Source: an uncultured Gemmatimonadales bacterium (lineage in GTDB: Bacteria > Gemmatimonadota > Gemmatimonadetes > Longimicrobiales > RSA9). From it: a DNA stretch of 64,000 nucleotides. The stretch spans positions 1,364,567 to 1,428,566 of the forward strand of contig CAWCUU010000002.1 of assembly GCA_963798855.1 (NCBI GenBank), given 5' to 3'. A model generated the notes under the pieces. It saw only the letters and a program-made list of their open reading frames with translations, was not told the origin of the DNA and did no database searches. How positions within the stretch are numbered: the first letter of the stretch is position 1; the number at the start of each line of letters is the position of its first letter. The translations under genes and the position numbers were made by a program. Of this stretch, positions 3,425 through 61,431 are shown piece after piece.

Positions 3425-3500
3425 GATTGAAGAGTGAAGTGAGAACTGTGAAGTGTGAGGCGTGAAGACTGAATTGGGAAGTGTGAAGTCCGAAGGGTGA
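3425..3500 (-). promoter_or_regulatory. low-GC leader/promoter region of the APC permease gene with four CTTCAC(A/T) repeats, including CTTCACAGTTC
   Basis: Minus-strand reading: GGACTTCACACTTCCCAATTCAGTCTTCACGCCTCACACTTCACAGTTCTCACTTCACTCTTCAATCGAGAG...GTG. The local GC drop is conspicuous in a 70% GC genome. Confidence 0.45.
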
Positions 3501-3502
3501 CG

Positions 3503-6205
3503 TCAATTCCCGATCCAGTAGGAGAGCTTGAGCAGGAATATGTTGGTGGGGACGCTGTCGAAAATGCCGCGCGTGTCGCGGCCGAGCTCGAAGGTGCCGT
3601 CGGGCAGCGAGTAGCTGCGCTGCTGCTGCCAGACCAGGTAGAGCGTGGAGCCGGGGCGGTATTCCCAGCGCAGCACGGCGTTGCCGCGCAGCGATCGGAA
3701 GGTGAAGTCCGGATCGAAGAACTGGAACGCGGGCGCGGGGCCGTCGGCGTCGGGGTCGACGGTGTAGAAGCCCTGCCTGCCCTGCACGCCGCGGACGATC
3801 GTGCCGCGGTCGACCCCGTAGATCGCGTAGTCGAGCGAGGCCGGCGCATCCAGCTCGCGGAAGGAGGAGTAGCGTCCGGCCGAGACGAATGGCTGCGCGT
3901 AGAGCTGCAGCGACAGCGTCGGCGTGAAGGTCCAGTCGAGGCGGGTGTCCAGCCCGAGCGTCGTCTGGCGCAGCCTGGCGAAGACGTAGCGGCGACCGGA
4001 CGTCGCGTCCGCACTGGGGTCCGCGACGGTGCGCACGTACTGCTGATAGGTCGTCTGCTTCTGCAGGTCGGGGCCGAAGCTGACGTGCACGTTCGTGGCC
4101 GGCCGCGCGTCGAGGGAGATGCTGATCTCGCGACTGTTGCCGCCGAGCTCATCACGGCTGAGGGAGCCGAAGACCTGGGCGACGATCGGCTTGCGGGCGT
4201 CGCTGGAGAAGTAGGCCGAGCCGTACCACTGCGAGGGCGAGCGTGCGAGCGGGCCGCCGCGCGTCAGCCGGTCGCTCATCGTGCGGGGGTTGTAGGTGAA
4301 GCTCGCGCCGATCGTGTGGAAGCTCGACAGCTGCACGTTTCCGGAGCCCGCGAAGCCGTCGTAGATCAGGTCGCCGCCATAGTTCCACGCCTGATTCGTG
4401 TAGACGTAGGCGGAGTAGTTGCGGTACCAGCCGCTCGCCCGGTCCTCGACGTAGCGCAGGAACGTCGAGAACGCGCGGGCGTCCGCTCGCGACAGGAAGC
4501 CGATGTCGTTCAGCTCGAAGCCGGGGCTCACGTCGCGGTAGGAGAGCGAGCCGGTCCAGTGGCGGCCGCCGGCCTTCGCGAGCGCGAGCTCGGCGATGTG
4601 GCCGTCGAGCGCGGTCCGGGTCGGGTCGATTTCCAGGTAGTCGGCGTCCGGCCGCTGGTAGTATCGCGCGCTCGACGCCTGTGCGGCGGCGATGACGTCG
4701 GGCTCGCCGCGGATCCGGCTCCCCGCGACGTACCCGGAGACGGACCACGCCCGGTTCGCCCACGTGTGCAGGAAGTCCGCGCCGCCAATGTAGGCGCCGG
4801 AGCGGAGCAGCCCGGCGAGCGCGGGCAGCGACAGATCGCGGTTCGTCGCCGTGAAGATCCCGCCCAGCACCGAACGCCCCTGCCGCAGGTCCTTGCGAAG
4901 GCGAGCCACCATGTAGTTCGTCAGCGGCTCGACCCGCGTGGTGCGCATGTCACCCGTCGGGTCCGCATAGCGGGCCTCCTCCGGCGTCGTGACCGCGTCC
5001 AGGAAGCCGATCGACCAGCCGCTCGCCGTCTTGCCGCTGACCTTCGCGGCGGTCGCGATCGTGGTCTGGTCCGGCGCGTCGACGTACGCGTACTGCGAGC
5101 CGGACAGGCCGCGCTGCGGTGGCCGCCCGATGCGCCGGGAGTAGAAGTAGATGTAGCGGTTGTAGTTGTTGAAGCTCTGCGTGTTGCCGAACGAGAAGAT
5201 GTCCGATCCCTCGACGAAGAATGGCCGCTTCTCGGGGAAGAACGTCTCGAACGCGCTCAGGTTCACGACGGCCGGATCGACCTCGACCTGACCGAAGTCG
5301 GGATTCACCGTCGCGGTCAGCGTCAGCCCCGCGGGCAGCCCGTACTTCACATCCGCCCCGACGGAGAACGAGGCGTCTGTCGGCTCGAAGAACGGGTTGG
5401 CGGAGCTGCCCGGCGCGCGGACGAGCCGTGCGCTGGTGTAAGGCTGCAGCTCGAAGCGATGTGGCGGGTGGATGCCGTCGAGGCCCGTGAGGTTCCCGAA
5501 CGCGGAGACGAAGCCGGGCGAGCGCCGGGTCCACGGCGACCACGAGTCGCGCTCGTCGTGACGCGCGATGTCGCGCATCACCTGGAACCCCCAGACCCGG
5601 CCGCTGTCGCTTGGCTGTGATCCGAAGCGCAGCTGCGAGAACGGGATCCTGTACTCCGCCGTCCAGCCGAGCGAGTCCACACGCGTCGCCACGTCCCACA
5701 CCGCGTCCCACGAGACGTCCTCGTCGCCGTCGTTCGAGGTGTAGACGTCTTTCTTCACACCGAGTGGGTTGGCCGAGAAGCGGAAGGCGGTACGTCGGTC
5801 GTGATAGCTGTCGATGATGACGTGGACCCAGTCCGAGTAGATGCCGCTGGCGTCGCGCCTGGCCAGCTGGGCCGCGACGGAGTCGGGCTGGTCGTCGCGC
5901 AGACGCACGCCCACGTAGAGCGCGTCGTCGTCGTACAACACTCGCACCTCGGTCCGCTCCGTCGGCTCCGCGTTCGGCTGCGGCCAGCTCTGCATGAAGT
6001 CCGAGCCGACCGGGGCGGCCGCCCACGCCGCCTCGTTCAACCGCCCGTCGATGTCGACAGGCCCGGTGCGCCGCTCGGCGTCGAGTGCGGGCGTCGGGCC
6101 GAGGTGCCCGTTCGACGGCGGCTGCGCGCCCTGCGCGATGAGCGGACGTGGCGCCGTGAACGCGGCGGCCGCGAGTACAATGATCGAGAGGATGTCGCGA
6201 TTCAT
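3503..6205 (-). CDS. DUF5916 / carbohydrate-binding-family-9-like outer-membrane/secreted protein (900 aa, signal peptide)
   Basis: Long non-junk ORF with signal peptide MNRDILSIIVLAAAAFTAPRPLIAQ. Conserved blocks (NPDFGQVEVDPAVVNLSAFETFFPEKRPFF; RSLRGNAVLRWEYRPGSTL) are shared with the paralog at 23406..26141. Confidence 0.85.
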   Translation of the reverse strand: MNRDILSIIVLAAAAFTAPRPLIAQGAQPPSNGHLGPTPALDAERRTGPVDIDGRLNEAAWAAAPVGSDFMQSWPQPNAEPTERTEVRVLYDDDALYVGVRLRDDQPDSVAAQLARRDASGIYSDWVHVIIDSYHDRRTAFRFSANPLGVKKDVYTSNDGDEDVSWDAVWDVATRVDSLGWTAEYRIPFSQLRFGSQPSDSGRVWGFQVMRDIARHDERDSWSPWTRRSPGFVSAFGNLTGLDGIHPPHRFELQPYTSARLVRAPGSSANPFFEPTDASFSVGADVKYGLPAGLTLTATVNPDFGQVEVDPAVVNLSAFETFFPEKRPFFVEGSDIFSFGNTQSFNNYNRYIYFYSRRIGRPPQRGLSGSQYAYVDAPDQTTIATAAKVSGKTASGWSIGFLDAVTTPEEARYADPTGDMRTTRVEPLTNYMVARLRKDLRQGRSVLGGIFTATNRDLSLPALAGLLRSGAYIGGADFLHTWANRAWSVSGYVAGSRIRGEPDVIAAAQASSARYYQRPDADYLEIDPTRTALDGHIAELALAKAGGRHWTGSLSYRDVSPGFELNDIGFLSRADARAFSTFLRYVEDRASGWYRNYSAYVYTNQAWNYGGDLIYDGFAGSGNVQLSSFHTIGASFTYNPRTMSDRLTRGGPLARSPSQWYGSAYFSSDARKPIVAQVFGSLSRDELGGNSREISISLDARPATNVHVSFGPDLQKQTTYQQYVRTVADPSADATSGRRYVFARLRQTTLGLDTRLDWTFTPTLSLQLYAQPFVSAGRYSSFRELDAPASLDYAIYGVDRGTIVRGVQGRQGFYTVDPDADGPAPAFQFFDPDFTFRSLRGNAVLRWEYRPGSTLYLVWQQQRSYSLPDGTFELGRDTRGIFDSVPTNIFLLKLSYWIGN

Positions 6206-6395: not shown

Positions 6396-6962
6396 TCAGC
6401 GCCCGATCGGCGAGCCCCCGCTTCCTCCCTTTCGCCAGGCGCCGCCATCGCGGGATCCGGCGCCACCCGAGCCGCCACGACGACGCATGCCGCGTCCGCG
6501 CATGCCGTCACGGCGGCTGCGCATCATCTCCCTAACGGCGTTCTGCTGATCCGTCGTCAGCAGCTTCAGTGCCGCGTCCATCGATTCGCGGTTGTTCGTG
6601 CGGATCTGCTCCATGACGGGACGTAGCTCCTCCATCGCCTGACGCCACTGCTGGCGCTGCTCGTCGGTCGGGGGAGCGGCCTGATCGCCCTCCGGCCGCG
6701 GCGGACGCTTCGCCTCGATCTGCTTCACCAGCGGCGAGTTCTTCTCCTCCAGCCGCGACTGCATGACCTGCAGCTTCGCGACCTGGTCACCGGTGAGCTT
6801 GAGGGTATCCTTCTGCGCCAGGATCGTCGCGATCGGGTTGCGGGGACCCCTTCCCCGCGGACCCATCGGTCCGGGCCCACCCGCCGGAGGACCCTGCGCG
6901 ACCAGCGTACCAGGAAGGGCCGCGAACGCCAGGATCGCGAGCCCGCGTAGCATCTTCGACAT
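6396..6962 (-). CDS. periplasmic LTXXQ-motif protein (Spy/CpxP-like family)
   Basis: Signal peptide MSKMLRGLAILAFAALPGTLVAQ. LTGDQ and LTTDQ motifs. C-terminal Arg/Gly-rich tail. Start taken as the internal ATG at 6962. Confidence 0.7.
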   Translation of the reverse strand: MSKMLRGLAILAFAALPGTLVAQGPPAGGPGPMGPRGRGPRNPIATILAQKDTLKLTGDQVAKLQVMQSRLEEKNSPLVKQIEAKRPPRPEGDQAAPPTDEQRQQWRQAMEELRPVMEQIRTNNRESMDAALKLLTTDQQNAVREMMRSRRDGMRGRGMRRRGGSGGAGSRDGGAWRKGGSGGSPIGR

Positions 6963-7060
6963 GTCCACTCTCCTCGTATGATGCGAACGTCCGCCGTCCG
7001 TCGTTGGATCGGCTCCGTCCACGAACTAGACGCCTGCCGGTGAGGAAACGTTAAGGGGGA

Positions 7061-7252
7061 CTGCAGGCGCTGAGGGCAGGCGTATACTGCAGGCGCTGAG
7101 GGCAGGCGCTGACTGCAGGCGCTGAGGGAAGGCGCTGACTGCAGGCGCTGAGGGCAGGCGTTTACTGCAGGCGCTGAGGGCAGGCGTTTACTGCAGGCGC
7201 TGAGGGCAGGCGTTTACTGCAGCCGCTGAGGGCAGGCGCTGAGGGCAGGCGC
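7061..7252. repeat. ~7.5 tandem copies of a 26-bp unit CTGCAGGCGCTGAGGGCAGGCG(TTT/CTG/TAT)A, in the divergent promoter region between the Spy-like gene and tauE
   Basis: Read directly. The unit is itself a 13-bp half-repeat (GCAGGCGCTGAGG / GCAGGCGTTTACT). Related to the GGCGCTGAC family below. Confidence 0.9.
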
Positions 7253-7496: not shown

Positions 7497-8330
7497 ATGA
7501 TGGGATTTGCGGAGGTGGCGGAGTTCGTGGTGCTCGGGTTCGGCGTCGGGGTGTACGGGACGATGGTTGGGGCGGGGGGCGGGTTCCTGATCGTGCCGGT
7601 GCTGCTGCTGATGTACCACGCAGATCCGGCGCGGGCGGCGGGGACGTCGATCACGGTGGTCTTCTTCAACGCGTTCTCTGGCTCGCTCTCCTATGCGAGG
7701 CAGAAGCGGATCGACTACAGGGCCGGACTCACATTCGCGGTCGCGACGGTGCCGGGCGCGGTGGCGGGCGCGTACATGGCGGAGCTGTTCAAGGGGCGAG
7801 ACTTCCACATCATTTTCGCGATCCTGCTGCTGGCGATCGCCGGCGTGCTGATCTGGCGACCGACCGGGGTGGCGGAGGAGGGACCGCCGGAGCCGCTCGA
7901 GGAGCATGAGGCACACCACTGGTGGAAGGTCGAGCACCGCATCGAGGATGCGAGCGGTCACGTTTTCCACTACCGCTACAACATCCTGGTCGGGACGGTG
8001 CTGAGCATCTTCGTCGGGTTCCTGTCGAGCATCCTCGGGATCGGCGGCGGCATCATCCACGTGCCGGCGCTGATCCACCTGCTGGCGTTTCCGGCACACG
8101 TCGCGACGGCGACATCTCACTTCATCCTGGCGATCTCGGCGCTGGTGGGCGCGGTCACGCACTTCGGCCTGGGCCACGTGATGGTTGGCCCCGCGCTGAC
8201 GATGGGGGTGGGCGTCGTGGTCGGCGCCCAGCTCGGTGCCCGGCTGGCGCGCCGGGTACACGGCGCGGTGGTGATCCGGATGCTGTCGCTGGCCCTGGTG
8301 GTCGTGGCGGTGCGGCTGCTCATGAAGTGA
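7497..8330 (+). CDS. TauE/SafE (DUF81) family sulfite/anion exporter
   Basis: MMGFAEVAEFVVLGFGVGVYGTMVGAGGGF... with two DUF81 halves. AGGAGAG RBS at 7490-7496 just upstream of ATG 7497. Confidence 0.85.
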   Translation: MMGFAEVAEFVVLGFGVGVYGTMVGAGGGFLIVPVLLLMYHADPARAAGTSITVVFFNAFSGSLSYARQKRIDYRAGLTFAVATVPGAVAGAYMAELFKGRDFHIIFAILLLAIAGVLIWRPTGVAEEGPPEPLEEHEAHHWWKVEHRIEDASGHVFHYRYNILVGTVLSIFVGFLSSILGIGGGIIHVPALIHLLAFPAHVATATSHFILAISALVGAVTHFGLGHVMVGPALTMGVGVVVGAQLGARLARRVHGAVVIRMLSLALVVVAVRLLMK

Positions 8331-8356
8331 AGGCGCTGACGGAAGGCGCTGACGAA
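8331..8356. repeat. two tandem AAGGCGCTGACG(G/A) units immediately after the tauE stop
   Basis: GTGA-AGGCGCTGACGG-AAGGCGCTGACGA. Forward-orientation member of the GGCGCTGAC family. Confidence 0.8.
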
Positions 8357-8425
8357 GGGGCGGGGGCTGATCGGAGTGGCCGCTCCGGCTATGGAGGTGC
8401 GCGTCGGCTCGGCCGAGATTATGGC

Positions 8426-8848
8426 ATGTCGAGCGAATCTCGGGAACTACTCTTCCGGCATGAGCGGATGCCGGTCTTCACGCTGGCGGTCGAAGCGGCC
8501 GTCGCGGCGGATGAGCTCGCACGACTGCTGCCGAGGGTCCACCTGTATCTTGCGGACCAGCTTCGGAGGGCCGCTTCCTCCATCGTGCTGAACATCGGCG
8601 AGGGAGCCGGAGAGCACCGGAGTCCGGAGAAGGCGCGCTTCTATCGAATCGCCCGCCGCTCGGCGACCGAAGCATCCGCCGTGCTGGAGCTTGCGATCGC
8701 GCTTCGACTACTCGAGCGTCCGACGATCGCGACCGCGAAGGAGCGCCTGATCACGGTGGCCGGCATGTTGACACGGTTGTGCCGGCGGTTCGAGGCCGCT
8801 CCTCACCCACGCTCCGACGGCTCGCGGCCTCCCGTGCGAACCGACTGA
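8426..8848 (+). CDS. four-helix-bundle protein (23S rRNA intervening-sequence protein family, TIGR02436-like)
   Basis: YLADQLRRAASSIVLNIGEGAGEHRSPEKARFYRIARRSATEASAVLELAIAL matches the family hallmark. ATG at 8426 in the frame of ORF 7922..8848. Confidence 0.75.
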   Translation: MSSESRELLFRHERMPVFTLAVEAAVAADELARLLPRVHLYLADQLRRAASSIVLNIGEGAGEHRSPEKARFYRIARRSATEASAVLELAIALRLLERPTIATAKERLITVAGMLTRLCRRFEAAPHPRSDGSRPPVRTD

Positions 8849-8861
8849 TGGACTACCTTCC

Positions 8862-8944
8862 AGTCAGCGCCTCTCAGTGAGCGCCTCTCAGTCAGCGCCT
8901 CTCAGTAGCGCCTCGCCGTCAGCGCCTCACCGTCAGCGCCTCAC
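8862..8944. repeat. six tandem GTCAGCGCCTC(TCA/ACC) units in reverse-complement orientation, between the four-helix-bundle gene stop and the BNR hydrolase stop
   Basis: CAGTCAGCGCCTCTCAGTGAGCGCCTCTCAGTCAGCGCCTCTCAGTAGCGCCTCGCCGTCAGCGCCTCACCGTCAGCGCCTCACC. Inverted relative to 8331..8356. Confidence 0.85.
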
Positions 8945-20513: not shown

Positions 20514-20869
20514 TATCGAATTCCTCCTTCGACGGCGGCGATCATGTCGCCGACGGTCGGTTCCCTTTCCGTGACGATCCAGGTGCTGACGGGCGCGGGT
20601 ACGTTGAGTGCCTCCGCGAACCCGGTGGACGGCGCCGGCAATGCAGCCGCGCCGGGCCGCGCGAGCCCGAGGGCCAGCGCAGAGGCGAGCGCGATCAGCG
20701 CCGCCGCCGCCAGAGCCGGTCGGGCCCAATCGGCGAGGACCACCATCGCCCCGCGTTCCGTCGCCCGTCGTTGCAGCTCCGGCAGCGCGGCCTCCATCAC
20801 CCGCCGCACCAGGCGCTCCCGCGCCACGGGCGTCAGCAGTGGACCGAGATCAATCCCGTCGCGTTTCAT
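20513..20869 (-). CDS. putative anti-sigma factor (single-TM protein encoded directly downstream of the ECF sigma)
   Basis: Assigned by position only, overlapping the sigma stop. Has a cytoplasmic N-domain, one TM helix (ALAAAALIALASALALGLA) and a short periplasmic tail. No zinc-binding anti-sigma motif. Confidence 0.45.
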   Translation of the reverse strand: MKRDGIDLGPLLTPVARERLVRRVMEAALPELQRRATERGAMVVLADWARPALAAAALIALASALALGLARPGAAALPAPSTGFAEALNVPAPVSTWIVTEREPTVGDMIAAVEGGIR

Positions 20870-21422
20870 CGAGCTCCTCCGCATAGAACCCCTGCCCGAG
20901 CCGCTCGCGCAGCGCGCGGCGGGCGTAAAACAGGTGCGACCGAACCGTGCCCTCCGGCATCATCAGCCGCTCCCCGATCTCGCGGTGGGTCCAGCCCTCG
21001 AGATCGTGGAGCAGCACCACCTCGCGCTGCACCTCCGATAGCGTCTCGAGCGCCCGTGCGAGACGCTCCCGGAGCTCGTTGCGCTCCGCGACCGCGGCCG
21101 TGTCCGACTTCGCATCGCCACGTCGCACGTGCTCGAGCGGCTCGGCCTGCCGGACCCTCCGGCGGCGACGGAGCGAGTATGCACGGTTGCGAGCGATCGT
21201 GATCAGCCACGCACCGAAGCGCGCCGGCTCACGACAGTCATCGAGGCGCTCCAGGGCGCGGATCAGCGCGTCCTGCGTGGCATCCTCCGCCTCCGCCGGC
21301 TCGCCCAGCGTCGCGAGCGCGACGGCGTAGGCGGCTCCGACGTGCCGGCGGACGAGAACCTCGAACGCGTCCCTGTCACCCTCCCGGGCGAGCTCGACCA
21401 GTCGGGCGTCCGTTTCGGTCAT
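20850..21422 (-). CDS. RNA polymerase ECF (sigma-70 group 4) sigma factor
   Basis: 190 aa with region 2 (DAFEVLVRRH...AYAVA) and region 4 (VVLLHDLEGWTHREIGERLMMPEGTVRSHLFYARRALRE). The ATG at 21422 lies inside the spurious 839-aa ORF. Confidence 0.9.
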   Translation of the reverse strand: MTETDARLVELAREGDRDAFEVLVRRHVGAAYAVALATLGEPAEAEDATQDALIRALERLDDCREPARFGAWLITIARNRAYSLRRRRRVRQAEPLEHVRRGDAKSDTAAVAERNELRERLARALETLSEVQREVVLLHDLEGWTHREIGERLMMPEGTVRSHLFYARRALRERLGQGFYAEELDETRRD

Positions 21423-21480
21423 GTGAATAGAGACGCGCCAGGGGGCATCAACGTTGAATCCAGAGCGGGACGGGCCGGCG

Positions 21481-21870
21481 CGTGGCGCCGCCCTGGCGGG
21501 CGGGGCGCCGGCGCTTCGCGCGGGGCGCTCCTGCGGAGGGCGCCACTTCGCGGGGGCGGCTTCGCCGGGGGGCGCTCCGCCCTGACGGGCGATCGCGGGG
21601 GGCGCTCCGCCCTGGCGGGCGATCGCGGGGGGCGCTCCGCCCTGGCGGGCGATCGCGGGGGGCGCTCCGCCCTGGCGGGCGATCGCGGGGGGCGCTCCGC
21701 CCTGGCGGGCGATCGCGGGGGGCGCTCCGCCCTGACGGGCGATCGCGGGGGCGCTCCGCCCTGACGGGCGATCGCGGGGGGCGCTCCGCCCTGACGGGCG
21801 ATCGCGGGGGGCGCTCCGCCCTGGCGGGCGATCGCGGGGGGCGCTCCGCCCTGACGGGCGGTCGCGGGGG
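21481..21870. repeat. 30-bp tandem repeat GGCGCTCCGCCCTG(G/A)CGGGCGATCGCGGGG, ~10 near-perfect copies (21568-21868) plus degenerate copies at the 5' flank, upstream of the ECF sigma gene
   Basis: Read directly. Copies differ mainly by G/A at one position (order A,G,G,G,G,A,A,A,G,A) and by one copy of 29 bp. Lies between the nhaA stop and the sigma start on the minus strand. Confidence 0.95.
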
Positions 21871-21871
21871 G

Positions 21872-23191
21872 CTATCCAGCGGGTGGCGTCGTGCGGAGGA
21901 GCAGCCAGCCCACCGCGCCGCTGAGGATGGAGCCGGCGAAGACGCCGACCTTGGCGGCGGCGAGGGCATGGGGGTCGCCGAGGCCGAGCGTCGCAATGAA
22001 GATCGACATCGTGAAGCCGATGCCGCACAGCCATGCGGCGCCGTAGATCTGGCGCCAGGTGACGCCGGCGGGGAGACGGGCGAGGCCGAGTCCGATCGCG
22101 GCGCGGGCGAAGATCATGACGCCGGCCTGCTTGCCGAGGACGAGGCCGAGCGCGACGCCGGCGGTTACGTTCGCGGCGGCGCCGGTGCTGCCGCGCAGGT
22201 GCACGCCGGCGTTCGCGAGCGCGAAGAGGGGCATGACGAGGTACGCGACGTATCCGTGCAAAGCGTTTTCGAAGCGGCAGAGCGGGCTCTGCACGTGCCG
22301 GCAGGCCATCTCGAGGTGGTGCGCGGCGTGGCGCTGCTCGATCGTCGGTGGTCCGGCCCGGTGGCCGTGGGGGTCGAGGATCTCGGCGAGGCCGCGCACG
22401 TGCTGGACGAAGTCGCTGCGATGCATGCGTCGCGTCGCGGGGATCAGCAGCGCGACGAGCACACCCGCCACGGTGGCGTGCACGCCGGAGTCCAGGACCG
22501 TGATCCAGACGCCGCCACCGAGCACGGCGTAGACGACCGGTCGCCAGATGTGCAGCCGGTTCGCGAGCGCGATCAACGCGAGCAACAGCAGCGCGATGCC
22601 GAGGCTGGTCCATGCGATCTTCCCGGTGTAGAAGATCGCGATGACGATCACGGCCCCCAGGTCGTCGGCGATCGCGAGGGCGGCGAGGAAGATTTTCAGG
22701 CCGAGCGGAATCCGTCGGTTCAGCAGCGATAGCACCCCGAGCGAGAAGGCGATGTCGGTGGCCATGGGGATACCCCAGCCGGTGTGCGCCGGGGTTCCGG
22801 CGTTCAGGGCGAGGTAGATGGTAGCCGGCACGATCATTCCGCCGAGCGCCGCGATCAGCGGTAGAAGCGCCTTCTTCGGTGCCGAAAGCTCGCCGATCAG
22901 CAACTCCCTCTTGATCTCGAGGCCGACGAGGAAGAAGAACATGGCCATCAGACCATCGTTGATCCAGTCGCGTAGCGGCTTCTCGAGGGCGTAGAACGGG
23001 CTGGAGACGCCGATCGGCATCTCCCAGACGCGGTCGTAGGAGGCCGCGAAGGGACTGTTGGCCCAGAGGACGGCGGTCAGAGCGGCCGCCAGCAGGATGA
23101 TTCCGCCCGACGCCTCCATCCGGAGGAAAGTCTGGAACGGGCGGATCAGGGCGCTCCGCGGGAGGCGCCTTCGTACCTTCGTCGCGTTCAT
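21872..23191 (-). CDS. nhaA: Na+/H+ antiporter NhaA
   Basis: NhaA fold motifs (FFFLVGLEIKRE; AIADDLGAV). Internal ATG 23191 (MNATKVRRRLP...). Confidence 0.9.
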   Translation of the reverse strand: MNATKVRRRLPRSALIRPFQTFLRMEASGGIILLAAALTAVLWANSPFAASYDRVWEMPIGVSSPFYALEKPLRDWINDGLMAMFFFLVGLEIKRELLIGELSAPKKALLPLIAALGGMIVPATIYLALNAGTPAHTGWGIPMATDIAFSLGVLSLLNRRIPLGLKIFLAALAIADDLGAVIVIAIFYTGKIAWTSLGIALLLLALIALANRLHIWRPVVYAVLGGGVWITVLDSGVHATVAGVLVALLIPATRRMHRSDFVQHVRGLAEILDPHGHRAGPPTIEQRHAAHHLEMACRHVQSPLCRFENALHGYVAYLVMPLFALANAGVHLRGSTGAAANVTAGVALGLVLGKQAGVMIFARAAIGLGLARLPAGVTWRQIYGAAWLCGIGFTMSIFIATLGLGDPHALAAAKVGVFAGSILSGAVGWLLLRTTPPAG

Positions 23192-23405: not shown

Positions 23406-26141
23406 ATGGAATCGCTCAGGCGTGCATCCGAGGCGTCACTTCCGCGATGGCCGGCGGCGTGCGCCATCGCGGTGCTGGTCGCAGCGAGCCCTCTCGCGGC
23501 ACAGAGCTCCGCACACGCCGCGATCCCTGCCGCACCCTCCGTCCACGCCGTCGAGCGCGCCGGGACCATTGCTCTCGACGGCAGGCTCGACGAAGGCGCC
23601 TGGGCCGCGGCGCCCGCGGCGACGGACTTCCTGCAGAGCCAGCCGAACGAAGGCGAGCCCGCGACGCAGCGCACCGAGGTGCGCTTCCTGATCGACGCCG
23701 AGGCGCTGTACGTCGGTGCGCGGATGTTCGATTCGGAGGGAGCAAAGGGCGTCCGGGCCCGGCTAAGTCGCCGCGACGCGGACAACAGCGCGGACGAGCT
23801 CGAGGTGATCTTCGACACCTACCACGACCGGCTTGGGCGCACCGTCTTCTCGGTGGGTCCGTCGGGCTCGCGAGGGGACGCCTACGGTCCGGGCGGCAGC
23901 AACACGGACGAGTCCTGGGATCCGGTGTGGGAGGTGAAGACCACGGTGGACTCGCTCGGCTGGACCGCGGAGATGCGCATCCCGCTCTCCCAGCTGCACT
24001 TCCCTACTGACTCACTGCAGACGTGGGGGCTGCAGCTCTGGAGGACGGAGGCGCGGACGAACGAGATCTCGATGTGGTCGTTCTGGCGGCGCAACGAGCA
24101 GGGTGGACCGTCAAGGTTCGGCGAGCTGGAGGGCATTCGCATCGCGAATCAGCCGGGGCGGGCGGAAGCGCTGCCCTACGTTGTCGCGAGCTCCTCCTTC
24201 CTCAACTCCGTGGATGCCGGCAACCCGTTCCGCTCCAGCCGCGAGAACCACTACCGGGCGGGGCTCGACCTGAAGTACGTCCTGACGCCTACGCTGACGC
24301 TGGCGGCGACGGTCAACCCGGACTTCGGTCAGGTCGAGGTCGATCCGGCCGTCGTCAACCTGTCGGCGTTCGAGACCTTCTTTCCGGAGCGCCGGCCATT
24401 CTTCGTGGAGGGCTCGGGGCTGTTCGACTACGGCTCCTTCTGGTGCCACTTCTGCAGCAACGCGTCGTCACTCGACCTCTTCTACTCGCGGCGTATCGGG
24501 CGTTCCCCGCAGGGCGCCTCGATCGCCCGGGACGCCGGCGACTACGCGGACATACCGGAGAGCACGACGATTCTCGGGGCGGCCAAGATCACCGGGCGCA
24601 CGCCGTCCGGATACTCGATTGCGCTGCTCGACGCGGTCACCAGTCATGAGTCCGCGCACGTGCTGAACGGCACAGGGCAGTTCGACGTGCCGGTCGAGCC
24701 GGCGACGAATTACTTCGTCGCGCGCATCAAGCGCGATCTGCTGGGAGGCAATCTGGTCGTCGGCGGGATGGCCACGTCGACCGTCCGGTCGCTGAACAGC
24801 GCGCCGCTCGAGGGGTTGCTCAACCGGCACGCGGAGGCCGCCGGGCTGGACACGGAGCTGTGGTGGGGCAAGCACACCTACCACGTTCTGGGGCAGTTCG
24901 CCGTCTCCCAGATCGGCGGCAGCGCGGACGCGATCCTGCGTGCGCAACGCTCCAGCGCCCGCTACTTCCAGCGCCCGGATCGAGAGGGGACCGGCAACGG
25001 GCTGTTCTCCGATGCCTACGACCCGGAGGCGACGTCGTTGCGCGGCTTCGCGGGTTATTTCCGCGTTGCGAAGGACGCCGGCAACTGGGAGTGGGAGTCG
25101 TCGCTCAACGTGCGCAGCCCCGGCTTCGAGGTGAACGACCTCTCCTTCCTGACGCGCGCCGACTACATCTGGATGAATGCCAATCTCGTGCGGCACTACA
25201 CGAAGCCGACGAGCTGGTATCGCAGCCTCTGGTTCGACGTCGGCGGGCAGCAGCAGTTCAACTTCGACGGCGACCGGACGGACGGTCAGGTCCAGGCGTA
25301 CGCGCAGTACGAGGCCCCGAACTACTGGAACTTCTCCGGCTTCGTCATGCACCGCTTCGGACACCTCGACGATCGCATCGCCCGCGGCGGACCGCAGCTC
25401 CGCACCCCGGCATGGAACGGCTATTTCCTGAACGTCTCGACCAACTCGCGGCACGCGGTCTCGTTCGACGGAAGCGGGAGCTGGGGTCGCGACGAGGAAG
25501 GCCTGGAGAACTACTCGCTCTACCTCGGGGCGACGTATCACCCGGTCCCGAGCGTCAGCGTCTCGGTCGGGCCCAACCTGTCGCGGAACTGGAGCTCCTA
25601 CCAGTACGTGACCAGCGTGGGCGATCCGACCGCCACCGACTTCTACGGCCGGCGCTACGTCTTCGCGACGCTCGACCAGCGGACGCTGTCGATGGACACG
25701 CGCCTGTCCATGACGTTCACGCCTACCCTCTCGCTCGAGCTATTCGCGCAGCCGTTCATCGCCAGCGGCAGCTACTCGCACTACAAGGAGTTCGCTGCGC
25801 CGCGGGTGCTCGAGAAGACGCTGTACGGCCGCGACATCGGCACGATCGCAGCGGCCGGCGAGGGCTTCGACCGCGAGTTCACGGTGGACCCGGACGCCGC
25901 GGGGCCGGCCCAGCCGTTCACGTTCGGCGCGCCGGACTTCAACTTCCGCTCGTTGCGCGGCAACGCCGTGCTGCGCTGGGAATACCGCCCCGGCTCGACG
26001 CTCTTCCTCGTGTGGACCCAGCAGCGGAGCGACACGGAGCCGGTCGGGGACCTGTCGTTCGGACGTGACCGCGCCGCGCTCTTCGCCGCCCGACCCGACA
26101 ACATCTTCCTCGTGAAGGTGAACTACTGGGTCGGATTCTGA
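23406..26141 (+). CDS. DUF5916 / carbohydrate-binding-family-9-like outer-membrane/secreted protein, paralog of 3503..6205
   Basis: 911 aa with signal peptide. Long colinear similarity to 3503..6205, including NPDFGQVEVDPAVVNLSAFETFFPERRPFF. Confidence 0.85.
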   Translation: MESLRRASEASLPRWPAACAIAVLVAASPLAAQSSAHAAIPAAPSVHAVERAGTIALDGRLDEGAWAAAPAATDFLQSQPNEGEPATQRTEVRFLIDAEALYVGARMFDSEGAKGVRARLSRRDADNSADELEVIFDTYHDRLGRTVFSVGPSGSRGDAYGPGGSNTDESWDPVWEVKTTVDSLGWTAEMRIPLSQLHFPTDSLQTWGLQLWRTEARTNEISMWSFWRRNEQGGPSRFGELEGIRIANQPGRAEALPYVVASSSFLNSVDAGNPFRSSRENHYRAGLDLKYVLTPTLTLAATVNPDFGQVEVDPAVVNLSAFETFFPERRPFFVEGSGLFDYGSFWCHFCSNASSLDLFYSRRIGRSPQGASIARDAGDYADIPESTTILGAAKITGRTPSGYSIALLDAVTSHESAHVLNGTGQFDVPVEPATNYFVARIKRDLLGGNLVVGGMATSTVRSLNSAPLEGLLNRHAEAAGLDTELWWGKHTYHVLGQFAVSQIGGSADAILRAQRSSARYFQRPDREGTGNGLFSDAYDPEATSLRGFAGYFRVAKDAGNWEWESSLNVRSPGFEVNDLSFLTRADYIWMNANLVRHYTKPTSWYRSLWFDVGGQQQFNFDGDRTDGQVQAYAQYEAPNYWNFSGFVMHRFGHLDDRIARGGPQLRTPAWNGYFLNVSTNSRHAVSFDGSGSWGRDEEGLENYSLYLGATYHPVPSVSVSVGPNLSRNWSSYQYVTSVGDPTATDFYGRRYVFATLDQRTLSMDTRLSMTFTPTLSLELFAQPFIASGSYSHYKEFAAPRVLEKTLYGRDIGTIAAAGEGFDREFTVDPDAAGPAQPFTFGAPDFNFRSLRGNAVLRWEYRPGSTLFLVWTQQRSDTEPVGDLSFGRDRAALFAARPDNIFLVKVNYWVGF

Positions 26142-35658: not shown

Positions 35659-35749
35659 GGTCGTTCCGGGTTGGGGGCGCTCGGTGAGGGAACCTCCGCT
35701 GAAAGATAGGGGCCGCGGATGAGGACCGCACGGGTGACGTCGGCGCTGA

Positions 35750-35930
35750 TACTGCGAGGCGCTGACTGCGAGGCGCTGACTGCGAGGCGCTGACTGCGAG
35801 GCGCTGACTGCAGGCGCTGACTGCAGGCGTTCACCACAGGCGCCTCGGCGTCAGCGCCTTCCTTCGACGCCTCGCCGCCAACGCCTGCTTTCAGCGCCTT
35901 CCTTCGACGCCTCGCCGTCAGCGCCTTACA
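35750..35930. repeat. palindromic GGCGCTGAC array: five forward CTGCGAGGCGCTGA units, a central spacer, then reverse-orientation GTCAGCGCC/GACGCCTCGCC units
   Basis: ACTGCGAGGCGCTGACTGCGAGGCGCTGACTGCGAGGCGCTGACTGCGAGGCGCTGACTGCAGGCGCTGACTGCAGGCGTTCACCACAGGCGCCTCGGCGTCAGCGCCTTCCTTCGACGCCTCGCC...GTCAGCGCCTTA. Between the saccharopine dehydrogenase stop and the LemA start. Confidence 0.85.
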
Positions 35931-46811: not shown

Positions 46812-47098
46812 GGGCAGGCGCTGACGGCAGGCGCTGACGGCAGGCGCTAACGGCAGGCGCTGACAGCAGGCGCTTACGGCAGGCGCTGACGGCAGGCGCT
46901 TACGGCAGGCGCTGACAGCAGGCGCTGACGGCAGGCGCTGACAGCAGGCGTATCCTGCTTCGACGCATCGTCCTGAGCGCCTCGCAGTGCGCGCCTCGCC
47001 GTGCGCGCCTCGCCGTGCGCGCCTCGCCGTGCGCGCCTCGCCTTGAGCGCCTCACTTTGAGCGCCTCGGTTCGAGCGCCTCGCAGTCAGCGCCTGCCT
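46812..47098. repeat. largest GGCGCTGAC array: ~10 forward GGCAGGCGCT(G/T/A)AC units (46812-46945) followed by a reverse arm of (GTGCGCGCCTCGCC)4 and GAGCGCCTC units, in the convergent gap between the aminotransferase and ABC-2 permease genes
   Basis: Read directly. The arms are imperfectly complementary, giving a long imperfect hairpin. Confidence 0.9.
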
Positions 47099-59959: not shown

Positions 59960-61044
59960 GCCGGCACGGAGTCATCGCCCGCTGGGGCACCTGGCTGCCC
60001 ATCACCGCCGAGACGCCCCGCCTGACGCTGCAGGAGGGAGACACGCCGCTGCTGCCGGCGCCCCGCCTCGCGCGTTGGGTCGGGGTCGAGGAGCTGCTGC
60101 TGAAGGTCGAGGGTCTGAACCCGACCGGCTCCTTCAAGGATCGGGGCATGGTGGTGGCCGTCGCGAAGGCGCTCGAGGATGGCGCCGAGACCGTGCTGTG
60201 CGCGTCCACCGGGAACACTTCCGCAAGCGCCTCCGCCTATGCGGCGCGGGCGGGGATCCGCGCCGTGGTGCTGCTCCCCGGCGGAAAGGTCGCGGCCGGA
60301 AAGGTGGCGCAGGCCGTCGTCCACGGCGCCCGCATCGTCTCGCTGCGCGCGAACTTCGACGTCGCGCTGGATCTCGCGCGGGCCATCGTCGCCCGTCACC
60401 CCGCGGTGCTCGTGAATTCCGTGAACCCGTACCGGCTCGAGGGTCAGGCCACCGCCGCCTACGAGATCTGCGAGGCGCTCGGCGGCGCGCCCGACGTACT
60501 GGCGCTCCCGCTCGGCAACGGCGGCAACATCACGGCGTACGCCATGGGGTTTTCGCGCTGGAAAGAGGCGGGGCGCATCGCAGCCCGGCCGGCGCTGATC
60601 GGGGTGCAGGCGGAGGGCGCCGCGCCGTTCGTCGCCGGACACCCGATCGACGCGCCGGAGACCGTCGCGACCGCGATCCGTATCGGCCGCCCGGCGACGT
60701 GGGAGCCGGCGATCGCCGCGGCGACGGAGTCCGGAGGTCACATCCTCGCCGTTCCCGACGACGCCATCCTCGAGGCCTATCATGAGATTCCGCGACAGGA
60801 GGGCGTGTTCTGCGAGCCGGCATCTGCCGCATCGGTCGCCGGGCTGCGGGCCGCGGTGCGGGAAGGCCGCATCGATGCGCGCTCACGCTGCGTGTGCGTG
60901 CTGACCGGAAACGGGCTCAAGGATCCGGCGACCGCGGTGCCGGCCGATTTCCGGGTCGAGGAGCTGGAGGCGGATGAGGCAGGGGTGGTGGCTGCGCTTC
61001 GCTTGCAGGGCAAGGGCAAGGGCAAGGGCAAGGGCCAGGGCTAG
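59956..61044 (+). CDS. thrC: threonine synthase, with an unusual (GK)n C-terminal tail
   Basis: PLP-lysine motif NPTGSFKDRGM. ATGA overlap with thrB. C-terminus GKGKGKGKGQG is encoded by a (GGCAAG)5 microsatellite. Confidence 0.9.
   Translation: MSRHGVIARWGTWLPITAETPRLTLQEGDTPLLPAPRLARWVGVEELLLKVEGLNPTGSFKDRGMVVAVAKALEDGAETVLCASTGNTSASASAYAARAGIRAVVLLPGGKVAAGKVAQAVVHGARIVSLRANFDVALDLARAIVARHPAVLVNSVNPYRLEGQATAAYEICEALGGAPDVLALPLGNGGNITAYAMGFSRWKEAGRIAARPALIGVQAEGAAPFVAGHPIDAPETVATAIRIGRPATWEPAIAAATESGGHILAVPDDAILEAYHEIPRQEGVFCEPASAASVAGLRAAVREGRIDARSRCVCVLTGNGLKDPATAVPADFRVEELEADEAGVVAALRLQGKGKGKGKGQG
61008..61040. repeat. (GGCAAG)5 GGCCAGGGC hexanucleotide microsatellite forming the 3' end of thrC
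   Basis: Read directly. An imperfect inverse copy (CTCGCC)3(CTAGCC)2 sits at ~61401-61430. Confidence 0.8.
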
Positions 61045-61080
61045 GAGGGGAAGAGCGAGGAAGGGAGGAGGTCGGTGGGC

Positions 61081-61362: not shown

Positions 61363-61416
61363 GACGAGGGCGAGGGACCCGGAAGCAGCCCGGCGACTCC
61401 TCGCCCTCGCCCTCGC
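61363..61416 (-). terminator. GC-rich hairpin (GAGGGCGAGGG ... CCCTCGCCCTC, ~11-bp stem, ~25-nt loop) between the lipoprotein gene stop and the small ORF start
   Basis: Self-complementarity read directly. No U-tract, so classification as an intrinsic terminator is weak. Confidence 0.3.
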
Positions 61417-61431
61417 CCTAGCCCTAGCCTC

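What the first reader, a model, noticed from the sequence alone, without database searches (positions are those of the whole stretch)
21481..21870. Near-perfect 30-bp x ~10 tandem repeat immediately upstream of an ECF sigma operon
About 300 bp of head-to-tail 30-mers (GGCGCTCCGCCCTG[G/A]CGGGCGATCGCGGGG), with only a G/A alternation and one 29-bp copy, sit between the nhaA stop and the ECF sigma start (21422). Flanking degenerate copies suggest the array grew by slippage. The period is a multiple of 3 but the array is not inside a genuine gene; the 839-aa ORF spanning it is a GC artefact. It sits exactly where the sigma factor promoter must be (ECF promoters are usually autoregulated), so copy number could tune or phase-vary the envelope-stress/efflux operon. 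Such G-rich tracts could also form G-quadruplex-like structures on the template.
Basis: seen in the sequence. Interest (0 to 1): 0.65.

Follow-up and report, generated by a model that had tools for sequence, protein, structure and literature searches.

The report
Non-coding 30-bp minisatellite between two genes
A real run of ten near-identical 30-base copies fills the gap between a sodium/proton antiporter gene and a stress sigma-factor gene in an uncultured soil-type bacterium, but it lies outside the conserved promoter, most relatives lack it, and it is most likely one of many unstable "stutter" repeats in this genome, not a dedicated switch.

Summary
Ten head-to-tail copies of GGCGCTCCGCCCTG(G/A)CGGGCGATCGCGGGG lie at 21571-21869, with three decayed copies at 21481-21570. 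They sit between the nhaA stop (21872-21874) and the ECF sigma start (21422). All genes are on the minus strand.

The array is non-coding. Its unit is absent from the rest of the window and from every collection searched.

A conserved ECF-type promoter, TCAACGTT-N14-CGTC (21457-21432), lies in the unique 58 bp between the array and the ATG, not inside the array. It is shared by seven further orthologous Longimicrobiales-like loci. Six of those seven have no array, including the closest (84% sigma identity). One (L082) has a large array with a different unit in the same place.

G-quadruplex potential is weak. The array folds no better than shuffled sequence, although a single unit forms a modest hairpin.

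Tandem arrays are about 10-90 times denser in this window than in comparison loci. Five of about 26 spacers carry one.

Best reading: a lineage-specific, slippage-generated minisatellite that fills dispensable spacer DNA, bounded by the nhaA stop and the sigma promoter. An insulator or terminator role, or copy-number tuning of the promoter, remains possible but unsupported.

The parts
21571..21869 (.). Core array: 10 head-to-tail units of 30 bp (one of 29 bp), GGCGCTCCGCCCTG(G/A)CGGGCGATCGCGGGG on the + strand. It lies antisense to the flanking genes and is 86% G+C.
21481..21570 (.). Three decayed copies of the unit on the sigma-proximal side. The best preserved part is 21485-21502, GCGCCGCCCTGGCGGGCG.
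21872..23191 (-). nhaA (Na+/H+ antiporter, 439 aa). Its TAG stop at 21874-21872 lies two bases from the last full unit.
21432..21457 (-). Predicted ECF-type promoter TCAACGTT-N14-CGTC (-35 at 21457-21453, -10 at 21435-21432). It ends 9 nt before the ATG, which implies a leaderless or near-leaderless mRNA.
   Evidence: Exact in the window. TCAACG.T and GCGTC are invariant in 6 orthologs whose remaining upstream DNA is 54% identical. It is also present in L171 and L174.
20850..21422 (-). ECF sigma factor, 190 aa. It is the first gene of the operon: sigma, 123-aa ORF, LTXXQ-like protein, OEP, membrane-fusion protein, MacB-type permease (down to 15848).

Best explanation
The array is a non-coding minisatellite (a VNTR-type tandem repeat). 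It arose and is kept homogeneous by replication slippage or unequal recombination in the dispensable spacer between nhaA and the sigma operon. The genome, from a Longimicrobiales-like Gemmatimonadota bacterium, is unusually prone to such arrays. The array's extent is set by selection at its two borders: the nhaA stop codon on one side and the conserved, probably autoregulated ECF promoter on the other. It is not part of that promoter and is not required for it. Any effect on expression is probably small and incidental. Copy number is expected to be unstable.

Shown: the anatomy, the non-coding status, the promoter position, the absence of an array in most orthologous loci, and the enrichment of arrays in this genome. 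Inferred: the slippage origin, near-neutrality, and copy-number instability.
For: 1. The copies are near-identical and head to tail, decay towards one end only, and stop sharply at the nhaA stop codon.

2. The unit occurs nowhere else in the 64-kb window. It is absent from 185,579 species-representative genomes and 241 million metagenome records. No similarity beyond chance 12-14-mers exists elsewhere in the window.

3. It is non-coding. The sigma start and nhaA stop agree with homologs and with the source's gene calls. The perfect units contain no ATG, GTG or TTG on either strand (seen in the sequence). The 29-bp unit shifts any reading frame. The six-frame translation has no hit among 5.8 billion protein clusters.

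4. The promoter TCAACGYT-N14-CGTC is conserved next to the start codon at eight loci and lies outside the array.

5. Six of the seven other motif-bearing orthologous loci have no array upstream. These include the closest (84% sigma identity) and L168, which keeps nhaA near the sigma gene.

6. Arrays are a property of the genome. The window has 6 arrays in 64 kb (9.4 per 100 kb), against 0.1 per 100 kb in 0.9 Mb of diverse genomes and 0.7 per 100 kb in GC-matched contigs. Five of about 26 spacers of at least 100 bp carry one.

7. There is a precedent in another high-G+C bacterium. Burkholderia pseudomallei has 70-102 arrays per Mb, mostly intergenic, mutating at more than 1e-5 per locus per generation (PMC1853098).

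8. The array is not specially structured: RNA folding gives z = -1.09 (minus sense) and +1.33 (plus sense) against shuffles. There is no Rfam match.
Against: 1. Arrays lie directly upstream of the -35 of this promoter type in three places. These are this locus, the ortholog L082 (1-bp gap, different unit), and a one-mismatch copy of the motif at 7029-7054 upstream of an LTXXQ gene (5-bp gap to the 26-bp array at 7060-7252). With about 20% of spacers carrying arrays, the chance of this is roughly 0.05, which hints at an association.

2. The decayed copies (21481-21575) align with L082's promoter-proximal array in the same orientation better than shuffles do (z = 3.2, 2 of 500). Ten control comparisons gave z from -1.2 to +0.8. 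If this reflects real homology, an array has persisted at this spot for a long time, which would argue for function.

3. A single unit, read as RNA in the nhaA sense, forms a hairpin of -15.9 kcal/mol (z = -2.4). The first such hairpin starts 7 nt after the stop codon (z = -3.2). No other terminator-like site lies between nhaA and the sigma gene.

4. Some 'array-free' relatives come from short-read contigs, which tend to break at arrays: L083 breaks 123 bp upstream of the sigma gene, about 90 bp from the array's end.
Confidence: 0.6

Rival explanations
1. Insulator, terminator or 3'-UTR stabiliser. The array is transcribed as the 3' end of the nhaA mRNA. Its ten GC-rich hairpins stop or slow read-through into the autoregulated sigma operon, or protect nhaA mRNA from 3' exonucleases, as REP/BIME elements do in enterobacteria.
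For: The array starts 2 nt after the nhaA stop codon. The unit hairpin is -15.9 to -17.7 kcal/mol, z = -2.4 to -3.2. No other terminator-like site exists in the 449-bp spacer. An autoregulated ECF promoter plausibly needs shielding from upstream transcription (inference). Other arrays in the window also begin at stop codons, and some form very long hairpins.
Against: There is no U-tract. The whole array folds no better than shuffled sequence. Relatives do without it, including L168, which has nhaA nearby. One hairpin would do the job, so ten identical copies need no functional explanation.
Confidence: 0.2
2. One reading: copy number of the array tunes or phase-varies the ECF sigma/efflux operon, for example by changing the DNA upstream of the -35 or through non-B DNA.
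For: Decayed copies reach to 23 bp from the -35. Independent arrays abut the same promoter type in L082 and at 7060-7252. Near-identical units are expected to change in number often (inference; rates for other VNTRs in PMC1853098).
Against: The promoter core and start site lie outside the array. Adding or removing 30-bp units changes only the distance to the end of nhaA, where no regulatory site is expected. Six of seven other motif-bearing orthologous promoters have no array. There is no canonical G4 motif, and G4Hunter is at most 1.28 in the perfect copies. No copy-number data exist.
Confidence: 0.1
3. Assembly artefact: the array, or its copy number, was produced or distorted by the assembler.
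For: The 29-bp unit differs only by one G in a G6 run, a typical long-read homopolymer error. The source contig is 1.93 Mb, so it probably comes from a long-read MAG (inference). Copy number in a consensus can hide heterogeneity.
Against: A 300-bp array is easily spanned by long reads. The array has internal variants in a non-periodic order and decayed flanking copies, which assemblers do not invent. Similar arrays occur at several other sites in the window and in an independent assembly (L082).
Confidence: 0.05
4. Coding repeat: the array encodes a low-complexity peptide, such as an N-terminal extension of the sigma factor, a C-terminal extension of NhaA, or a separate small protein.
For: The period is a multiple of 3. 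All three minus-strand frames stay open through the array. The G/A variant is synonymous in one frame, PAIARQGGAP (read).
Against: The sigma homologs listed are mostly 181-205 aa (a few up to 249) and align from the query's N-terminus. The NhaA Pfam domain ends 7 residues before the stop. The 29-bp unit shifts the frame. The units contain no start codon. Second-codon-position G+C is 80-90% by hand count of the unit, against about 50% in real genes. No protein anywhere resembles any frame.
Confidence: 0.02

Closest known systems
Intergenic VNTR arrays of high-G+C bacteria, e.g. Burkholderia pseudomallei (PMC1853098)
   Same: Both are head-to-tail arrays concentrated in intergenic DNA of a genome that carries many of them. 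The window has about 94 arrays per Mb; B. pseudomallei has 70-102 per Mb by that paper's own criteria. Some units there are shared between loci, as with the GGCGCTGAC arrays of this window.
   Different: Units in B. pseudomallei are 3-16 bp, against 30 bp here. Polymorphism is demonstrated there and untested here. The 30-bp unit is single-locus as far as can be seen.
MIRU (mycobacterial interspersed repetitive units; properties stated from my own knowledge of Supply et al. 1997/2000; only the typing use is cited, from PMC11220129)
   Same: Both are minisatellites with units of tens of bp, lying between co-directional genes of a high-G+C genome and reaching up to the flanking gene's stop codon.
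   Different: MIRUs are one dispersed family at about 40 loci. They carry short ORFs that overlap the stop and start codons of their neighbours. Here the unit is unique to one locus, has no start codon, and the downstream gene has its own promoter.
REP/BIME elements of enterobacteria (from my own knowledge)
   Same: Both have GC-rich, hairpin-forming units of about 30-40 bp clustered just after stop codons, where they could stabilise or end transcripts.
   Different: REPs occur in hundreds of dispersed copies, usually in alternating orientation, and are linked to RAYT transposases. This array is strictly direct and single-locus. The inverted GGCGCTGAC arrays elsewhere in the window resemble REP/BIME more closely.
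Promoter-associated phase-variable simple sequence repeats of Neisseria and Haemophilus (from my own knowledge; see also PMC12721329, listed)
   Same: Both are unstable repeat tracts close to a promoter.
   Different: Those tracts have 1-9-bp units and lie within or directly against the promoter elements or the 5' UTR, so unit changes alter spacing. Here the 30-bp units lie entirely upstream of an intact promoter.

Membership tests
Bacterial non-coding minisatellite / VNTR | Head-to-tail direct copies of a unit of about 10-100 bp | tested here: met
   Period 30, 10.3 copies, 97% matches; 10 units found against 0 expected
Bacterial non-coding minisatellite / VNTR | Lies outside protein-coding sequence | tested here: met
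   Gene borders are confirmed. The 29-bp unit shifts the frame, the units have no start codon, and no protein hit exists in any frame.
Bacterial non-coding minisatellite / VNTR | Copy number varies between strains or within a population | not testable with these tools
   No reads are available. The exact sigma and NhaA proteins occur on one contig only, and the unit is absent from the searched collections.
MIRU-like interspersed minisatellite | The same unit family is dispersed at many intergenic loci | tested here: not met
   No other copy within 3 mismatches in 64 kb; no similarity beyond chance 12-14-mers. The rest of the genome could not be read.
MIRU-like interspersed minisatellite | Units carry short ORFs that overlap the stop and start codons of the neighbouring genes | tested here: not met
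   The units contain no ATG, GTG or TTG. The sigma gene has its own promoter 9 nt upstream of its ATG.
REP/BIME-type palindromic elements | The unit is an imperfect palindrome that forms a hairpin | tested here: met
   Unit RNA folds at -15.9 kcal/mol, z = -2.4. As DNA it is weaker: -8 to -9 kcal/mol, z = -0.2 to -1.6.
REP/BIME-type palindromic elements | Many dispersed copies, often in alternating orientation | tested here: not met
   All ten units are direct and confined to one locus.
Phase-variable promoter repeat | The repeat lies within or between promoter elements, or in the 5' UTR or coding start, so that unit changes alter promoter geometry or reading frame | tested here: not met
   The conserved -35/-10 at 21457-21432 lies outside the array; the perfect copies begin 113 bp upstream of the -35.
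G-quadruplex-forming tract | Four G3+ runs with loops of 1-7 nt, or a G4Hunter score of at least 1.5 | tested here: not met
   No canonical motif on either strand of the array. In the perfect copies G4Hunter peaks at 1.28 and never reaches 1.5; it averages 0.68 over 21401-21900. A motif appears only if loops up to 15 nt are allowed. The decayed part reaches 1.68 once.
CRISPR array | Repeats separated by unique spacers of similar length | tested here: not met
   Units are contiguous, with start-to-start spacing of 30 bp, the unit length.
Known structured RNA family (Rfam) | Match to a covariance model at its gathering score | tested here: not met
   0 matches at gathering score in the window. 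Only noise (E = 0.4-0.6) in the permissive scan of 21300-22000.

The most novel reading that the evidence does not exclude
Tandem arrays placed directly upstream of the -35 of this conserved ECF promoter type may be a functional, fast-evolving cis-module of the regulon. Candidate roles are a transcriptional or topological insulator, or a copy-number-tunable upstream element. The unit sequence would turn over while the position is kept. The arrays in question are this one, the unrelated-unit array at the orthologous promoter in L082, and the 26-bp array 5 bp from a second motif copy upstream of an LTXXQ gene at 7029-7054. The weak similarity between this array's decayed copies and L082's promoter-proximal array (z = 3.2) would then be a trace of common descent.
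Probability: 0.1. Interest if true: 0.6.

Novelty: new member of a known kind. Interest (0 to 1): 0.3.

Why it matters
As it stands, this is an ordinary if unusually tidy bacterial minisatellite. Its practical value is as a likely hypervariable strain marker, and as a warning that short-read assemblies of such genomes break at these sites.

It would matter more if arrays next to this ECF promoter type turn out to be maintained by selection. That would describe a new way of insulating or tuning a stress regulon, in a phylum (Gemmatimonadota) where almost nothing is known about gene regulation.

The wider pattern seen here may deserve a genome-wide census more than this single array does. This genome packs its spacers with tandem arrays, some of which form hairpins of about 130 bp that run from stop codon to stop codon.

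Tried and rejected
1. Finding the unit elsewhere. Exact 26-mer core scans of genome contigs and metagenome contigs found nothing. A six-frame peptide search of 5.8 billion protein clusters found nothing.

2. Retrieving the source contig. Exact-protein look-ups failed for the sigma, NhaA and DUF5916 proteins, although both proteins exist in the protein collection on a 1.93-Mb contig. The rest of the genome therefore could not be censused.

3. NhaA-based relatives in GTDB representatives were only 39-56% identical and phylogenetically scattered, so they were useless for synteny.

4. Eighty JGI loci with sigma homologs (at most 57% identity) were too distant. They share neither the promoter motif nor, with rare exceptions, arrays.

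5. The array as a remnant of the FKBP gene that separates nhaA and sigma in L168: no similarity.

6. HIP1-like enrichment of the GCGATCGC palindrome in the unit: 20 observed against 19.4 expected outside the array.

7. Structured RNA: whole-array folds are no better than shuffles, and there is no Rfam match.

8. G-quadruplex: rejected as a strong feature.

9. Sigma-70-type promoter or intrinsic terminator in the spacer: none found.

10. Kinship with the GGCGCTGAC arrays elsewhere in the window: the only shared sequence is the hexamer GGCGCT, so this is not claimed.

11. Literature on tandem repeats in Longimicrobia or Gemmatimonadota: nothing relevant.

Full report
**Observation.** Tandem Repeats Finder gives 21566-21872, period 30, 10.3 copies, 97% matches. 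A search with the degenerate 30-mer finds ten units at 21571-21869. Nine are exact and one has a single mismatch. None occur elsewhere in the 64-kb window, and none appeared in 100 shuffles.
- One unit is 29 bp. The missing base is one G of a G6 run.
- The source contig is 1.93 Mb and so probably long-read. The 29-bp unit may therefore be a homopolymer error.
- The G/A site is not an alternation. It runs A,G,G,G,G,A,A,A,G,A.
- Three decayed copies lie at 21481-21570, on one side only. The 30 bp beyond the other end, inside nhaA, resemble the unit no more than background does.

**Surroundings.** Everything relevant is on the minus strand.
- NhaA (Pfam Na_H_antiport_1, 3e-144) ends with TAG at 21874-21872, two bases from the last unit.
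- The ECF sigma factor (Sigma70_r2, Sigma70_r4_2) starts at ATG 21422.
- After sigma come a 123-aa ORF, an LTXXQ-like periplasmic protein, an outer-membrane efflux protein, a membrane-fusion protein and a MacB-type permease.
- The public protein collection holds exactly these gene calls, a 190-aa sigma and a 439-aa NhaA, on one contig.
- Named relatives of the sigma factor are Longimicrobiales/Gemmatimonadota MAGs.

The 839-aa ORF across the array is an artefact of 69% G+C. It overlaps nhaA out of frame, and the nhaA frame has the codon signature.

**Coding or not.** The array is non-coding.
- The sigma homologs listed are mostly 181-205 aa (a few up to 249) and align from the query's N-terminus.
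- The NhaA domain is complete.
- The perfect units contain no ATG, GTG or TTG on either strand, and the 29-bp unit changes frame.
- A query made of all six reading frames of the unit hit nothing among 5.8 billion protein clusters.

**Where the promoter is.** I fetched orthologous loci through the closest sigma homologs: L081 (84%), L164-167 (70%), L082, L170 (68%), L168 (67%), L171 and L174 (64%).
- All have TCAAC (or TTAAC), 17 nt, then CGTC just upstream of the start codon. Seven, counting the window, fit TCAACG(T/C)T-N14-CGTC with at most one mismatch, and L174 shares only the TCAAC-N17-CGTC core.
- In a six-sequence alignment, TCAACG.T and GCGTC are invariant, while mean column identity over the whole upstream stretch is 54%.
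- In the window the motif is at 21457-21432 and ends 9 nt before the ATG, with no Shine-Dalgarno sequence in between. The mRNA is therefore probably leaderless or nearly so (inference).
- One-mismatch copies of the motif lie upstream of LTXXQ genes in the window (7029-7054) and in L170 (3092-3117). This fits a small envelope-stress regulon.

The promoter therefore lies in the unique 58 bp between the array and the ATG. It is 23 bp from the last decayed copy and 113 bp from the first perfect copy.

**Is the array conserved?** No.
- The 26-mer core is absent from 185,579 species-representative genomes and from 241 million metagenome records.
- Six of the seven other motif-bearing orthologous loci have no tandem array upstream of the sigma gene. 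These include the closest relative and L168, which keeps nhaA next to the operon with an FKBP gene in between. L172, a more divergent homolog locus with neither motif nor array, is not counted.
- The window's spacer holds no remnant of that FKBP gene.
- The exception is L082. Its 680-bp spacer upstream of the orthologous sigma holds two large arrays with different units (about 20 bp x 8.9 copies and 51 bp x 7.7 copies). The second ends 1 bp from the -35.

One caveat applies. Short-read contigs break at such arrays: L083, the short-read version of the L082 locus, starts 123 bp upstream of the sigma gene, about 90 bp from the array's end. However, several array-free loci do read through more than 400 bp of upstream DNA.

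**A property of the genome.** With one set of criteria (period at least 10, at least 3 copies, score at least 100), array density is:

| Sequence set | Arrays per 100 kb |
|---|---|
| This window (6 arrays in 64 kb) | 9.4 |
| L082 | 14.6 |
| 0.9 Mb of diverse genomes | 0.1 |
| 286 kb of GC-matched metagenome contigs | 0.7 |

(All.) A crude gene model gives 26 spacers of at least 100 bp, and five of them hold arrays. This density is of the order reported for Burkholderia pseudomallei, the classic repeat-rich high-G+C bacterium (PMC1853098).

The other arrays in the window belong to a different, dispersed 13/14-bp GGCGCTGAC family. They often occur as inverted pairs that fold into very long hairpins (z = -9.5 and -8.8).

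**Structure and non-B DNA.**
- The 30-bp array as a whole folds no better than shuffled sequence (z = -1.09 in the nhaA sense, +1.33 in the other).
- A single unit, read as RNA in the nhaA sense, forms a 9-bp interrupted hairpin of -15.9 kcal/mol (z = -2.4). The first such hairpin begins 7 nt after the stop codon (z = -3.2).
- There is no U-tract, no terminator-like site and no sigma-70-type promoter in the spacer. There is no Rfam match.
- No canonical G-quadruplex motif occurs. G4Hunter averages 0.68 over 21401-21900 and peaks at 1.28 in the perfect copies. A motif appears only if loops of up to 15 nt are allowed.
- The GCGATCGC palindrome in the unit is not enriched elsewhere.

**Interpretation.** The simplest account is a lineage-specific minisatellite born and homogenised by slippage or unequal exchange in dispensable spacer DNA. 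It would have expanded until it met the two things selection protects, the nhaA stop codon and the sigma promoter. I put this at 0.6.

Three observations keep a functional reading alive.
- Arrays directly abut the -35 of this promoter type in three places: here, in L082, and at 7060-7252 next to the LTXXQ promoter. With about 20% of spacers carrying arrays, this has roughly a 0.05 chance.
- The decayed copies align with L082's promoter-proximal array better than shuffles do (z = 3.2, 2 of 500). Ten controls gave z between -1.2 and +0.8.
- The unit hairpins sit where a terminator or mRNA stabiliser for nhaA would be.

The tuning idea is weakened because adding units changes only the distance to the end of nhaA. 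I give 0.05 to an assembly artefact and 0.02 to a coding repeat.

**Comparison with known systems.** It works like, and is best filed as, a bacterial intergenic VNTR/minisatellite.
- It is not MIRU-like: it is not dispersed and has no overlapping small ORFs.
- It is not REP/BIME-like: it is strictly direct and confined to one locus.
- It is not a classical phase-variable promoter repeat: it lies outside the promoter and has 30-bp units.
- It is not a CRISPR array, not a known RNA family and not a convincing G4 tract.

**Verdict.** This is a new member of a known kind, of modest interest on its own. The genome-wide abundance and placement of arrays is the more interesting lead.

Noticed in passing
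window 7060-7252; 8329-8358; 8861-8942; 35742-35829 + 35851-35926; 46813-46950 + 46974-47094: A dispersed family of 13/14-bp tandem arrays with the core (A)GGCGCTGA(C) occurs in both orientations. Inverted pairs fold into hairpins of about 100-140 bp (z = -9.5 and -8.8). They fill whole spacers from stop codon to stop codon (46811/46813 and 47094/47099; also 35926). The doubled motif is absent from all 179 other loci fetched. They could be bidirectional terminators or MITE-like elements.
   Followed up: partly
window 8426-8848 (+), flanked by 8329-8358 and 8861-8942: A 140-aa ORF matching Pfam 23S_rRNA_IVP (67 bits) is bracketed by a direct and an inverted GGCGCTGAC array. This looks like a cassette held in a long stem. 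The inverted arrays elsewhere might be cargo-free versions of the same element.
   Followed up: no
window 7029-7054 (-), upstream of the LTXXQ gene 6396-6962 (-): A second, one-mismatch copy of the ECF promoter motif (TTAACGTT-N14-CGTC) lies about 65 nt upstream of an LTXXQ/CpxP-like gene (Pfam 25.4 bits). The 26-bp array at 7060-7252 starts 5 bp upstream of its -35. L170 has the same motif upstream of its LTXXQ gene.
   Followed up: partly
L082 9360-9538 and 9549-9970: The orthologous sigma operon of another Longimicrobiales-like genome has about 600 bp of tandem arrays with different units directly upstream of the same promoter. The two arrays are partly inverse to each other. The promoter-proximal one shows weak, orientation-specific similarity to the window's decayed copies (z = 3.2).
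   Followed up: partly
window 21423-21435 and orthologs (alignment A1): The -10 element CGTC ends only 8-10 nt before the start codon in the window, L081, L168 and L174, and in L082 if its second ATG is the true start. It ends 13-17 nt before it in L170 and L171, and the distance in L164 is unclear. No Shine-Dalgarno sequence is present, so the sigma mRNA is probably leaderless in this clade.
   Followed up: partly
L083 (Logan short-read contig), compared with L082: The short-read assembly of the L082 locus ends 123 bp upstream of the sigma gene, about 90 bp from the array's end. Short-read assemblies appear to lose these arrays systematically, so their apparent rarity in metagenome contigs is partly technical.
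   Followed up: no
window 3428-3500; 61007-61045; 61399-61429: Further short-unit tandem tracts: a 7-bp unit x 10.4 copies, AGGGCA x 6.5 and CCTCGC x 5.2. These were not examined.
   Followed up: no
window 3503-6205 (-) and 23406-26141 (+): Two paralogous 900-aa CBM9 + DUF5916 proteins lie in one 64-kb window, together with several MacB/FtsX-type permeases. One of these is an 860-aa duplicated form.
   Followed up: no
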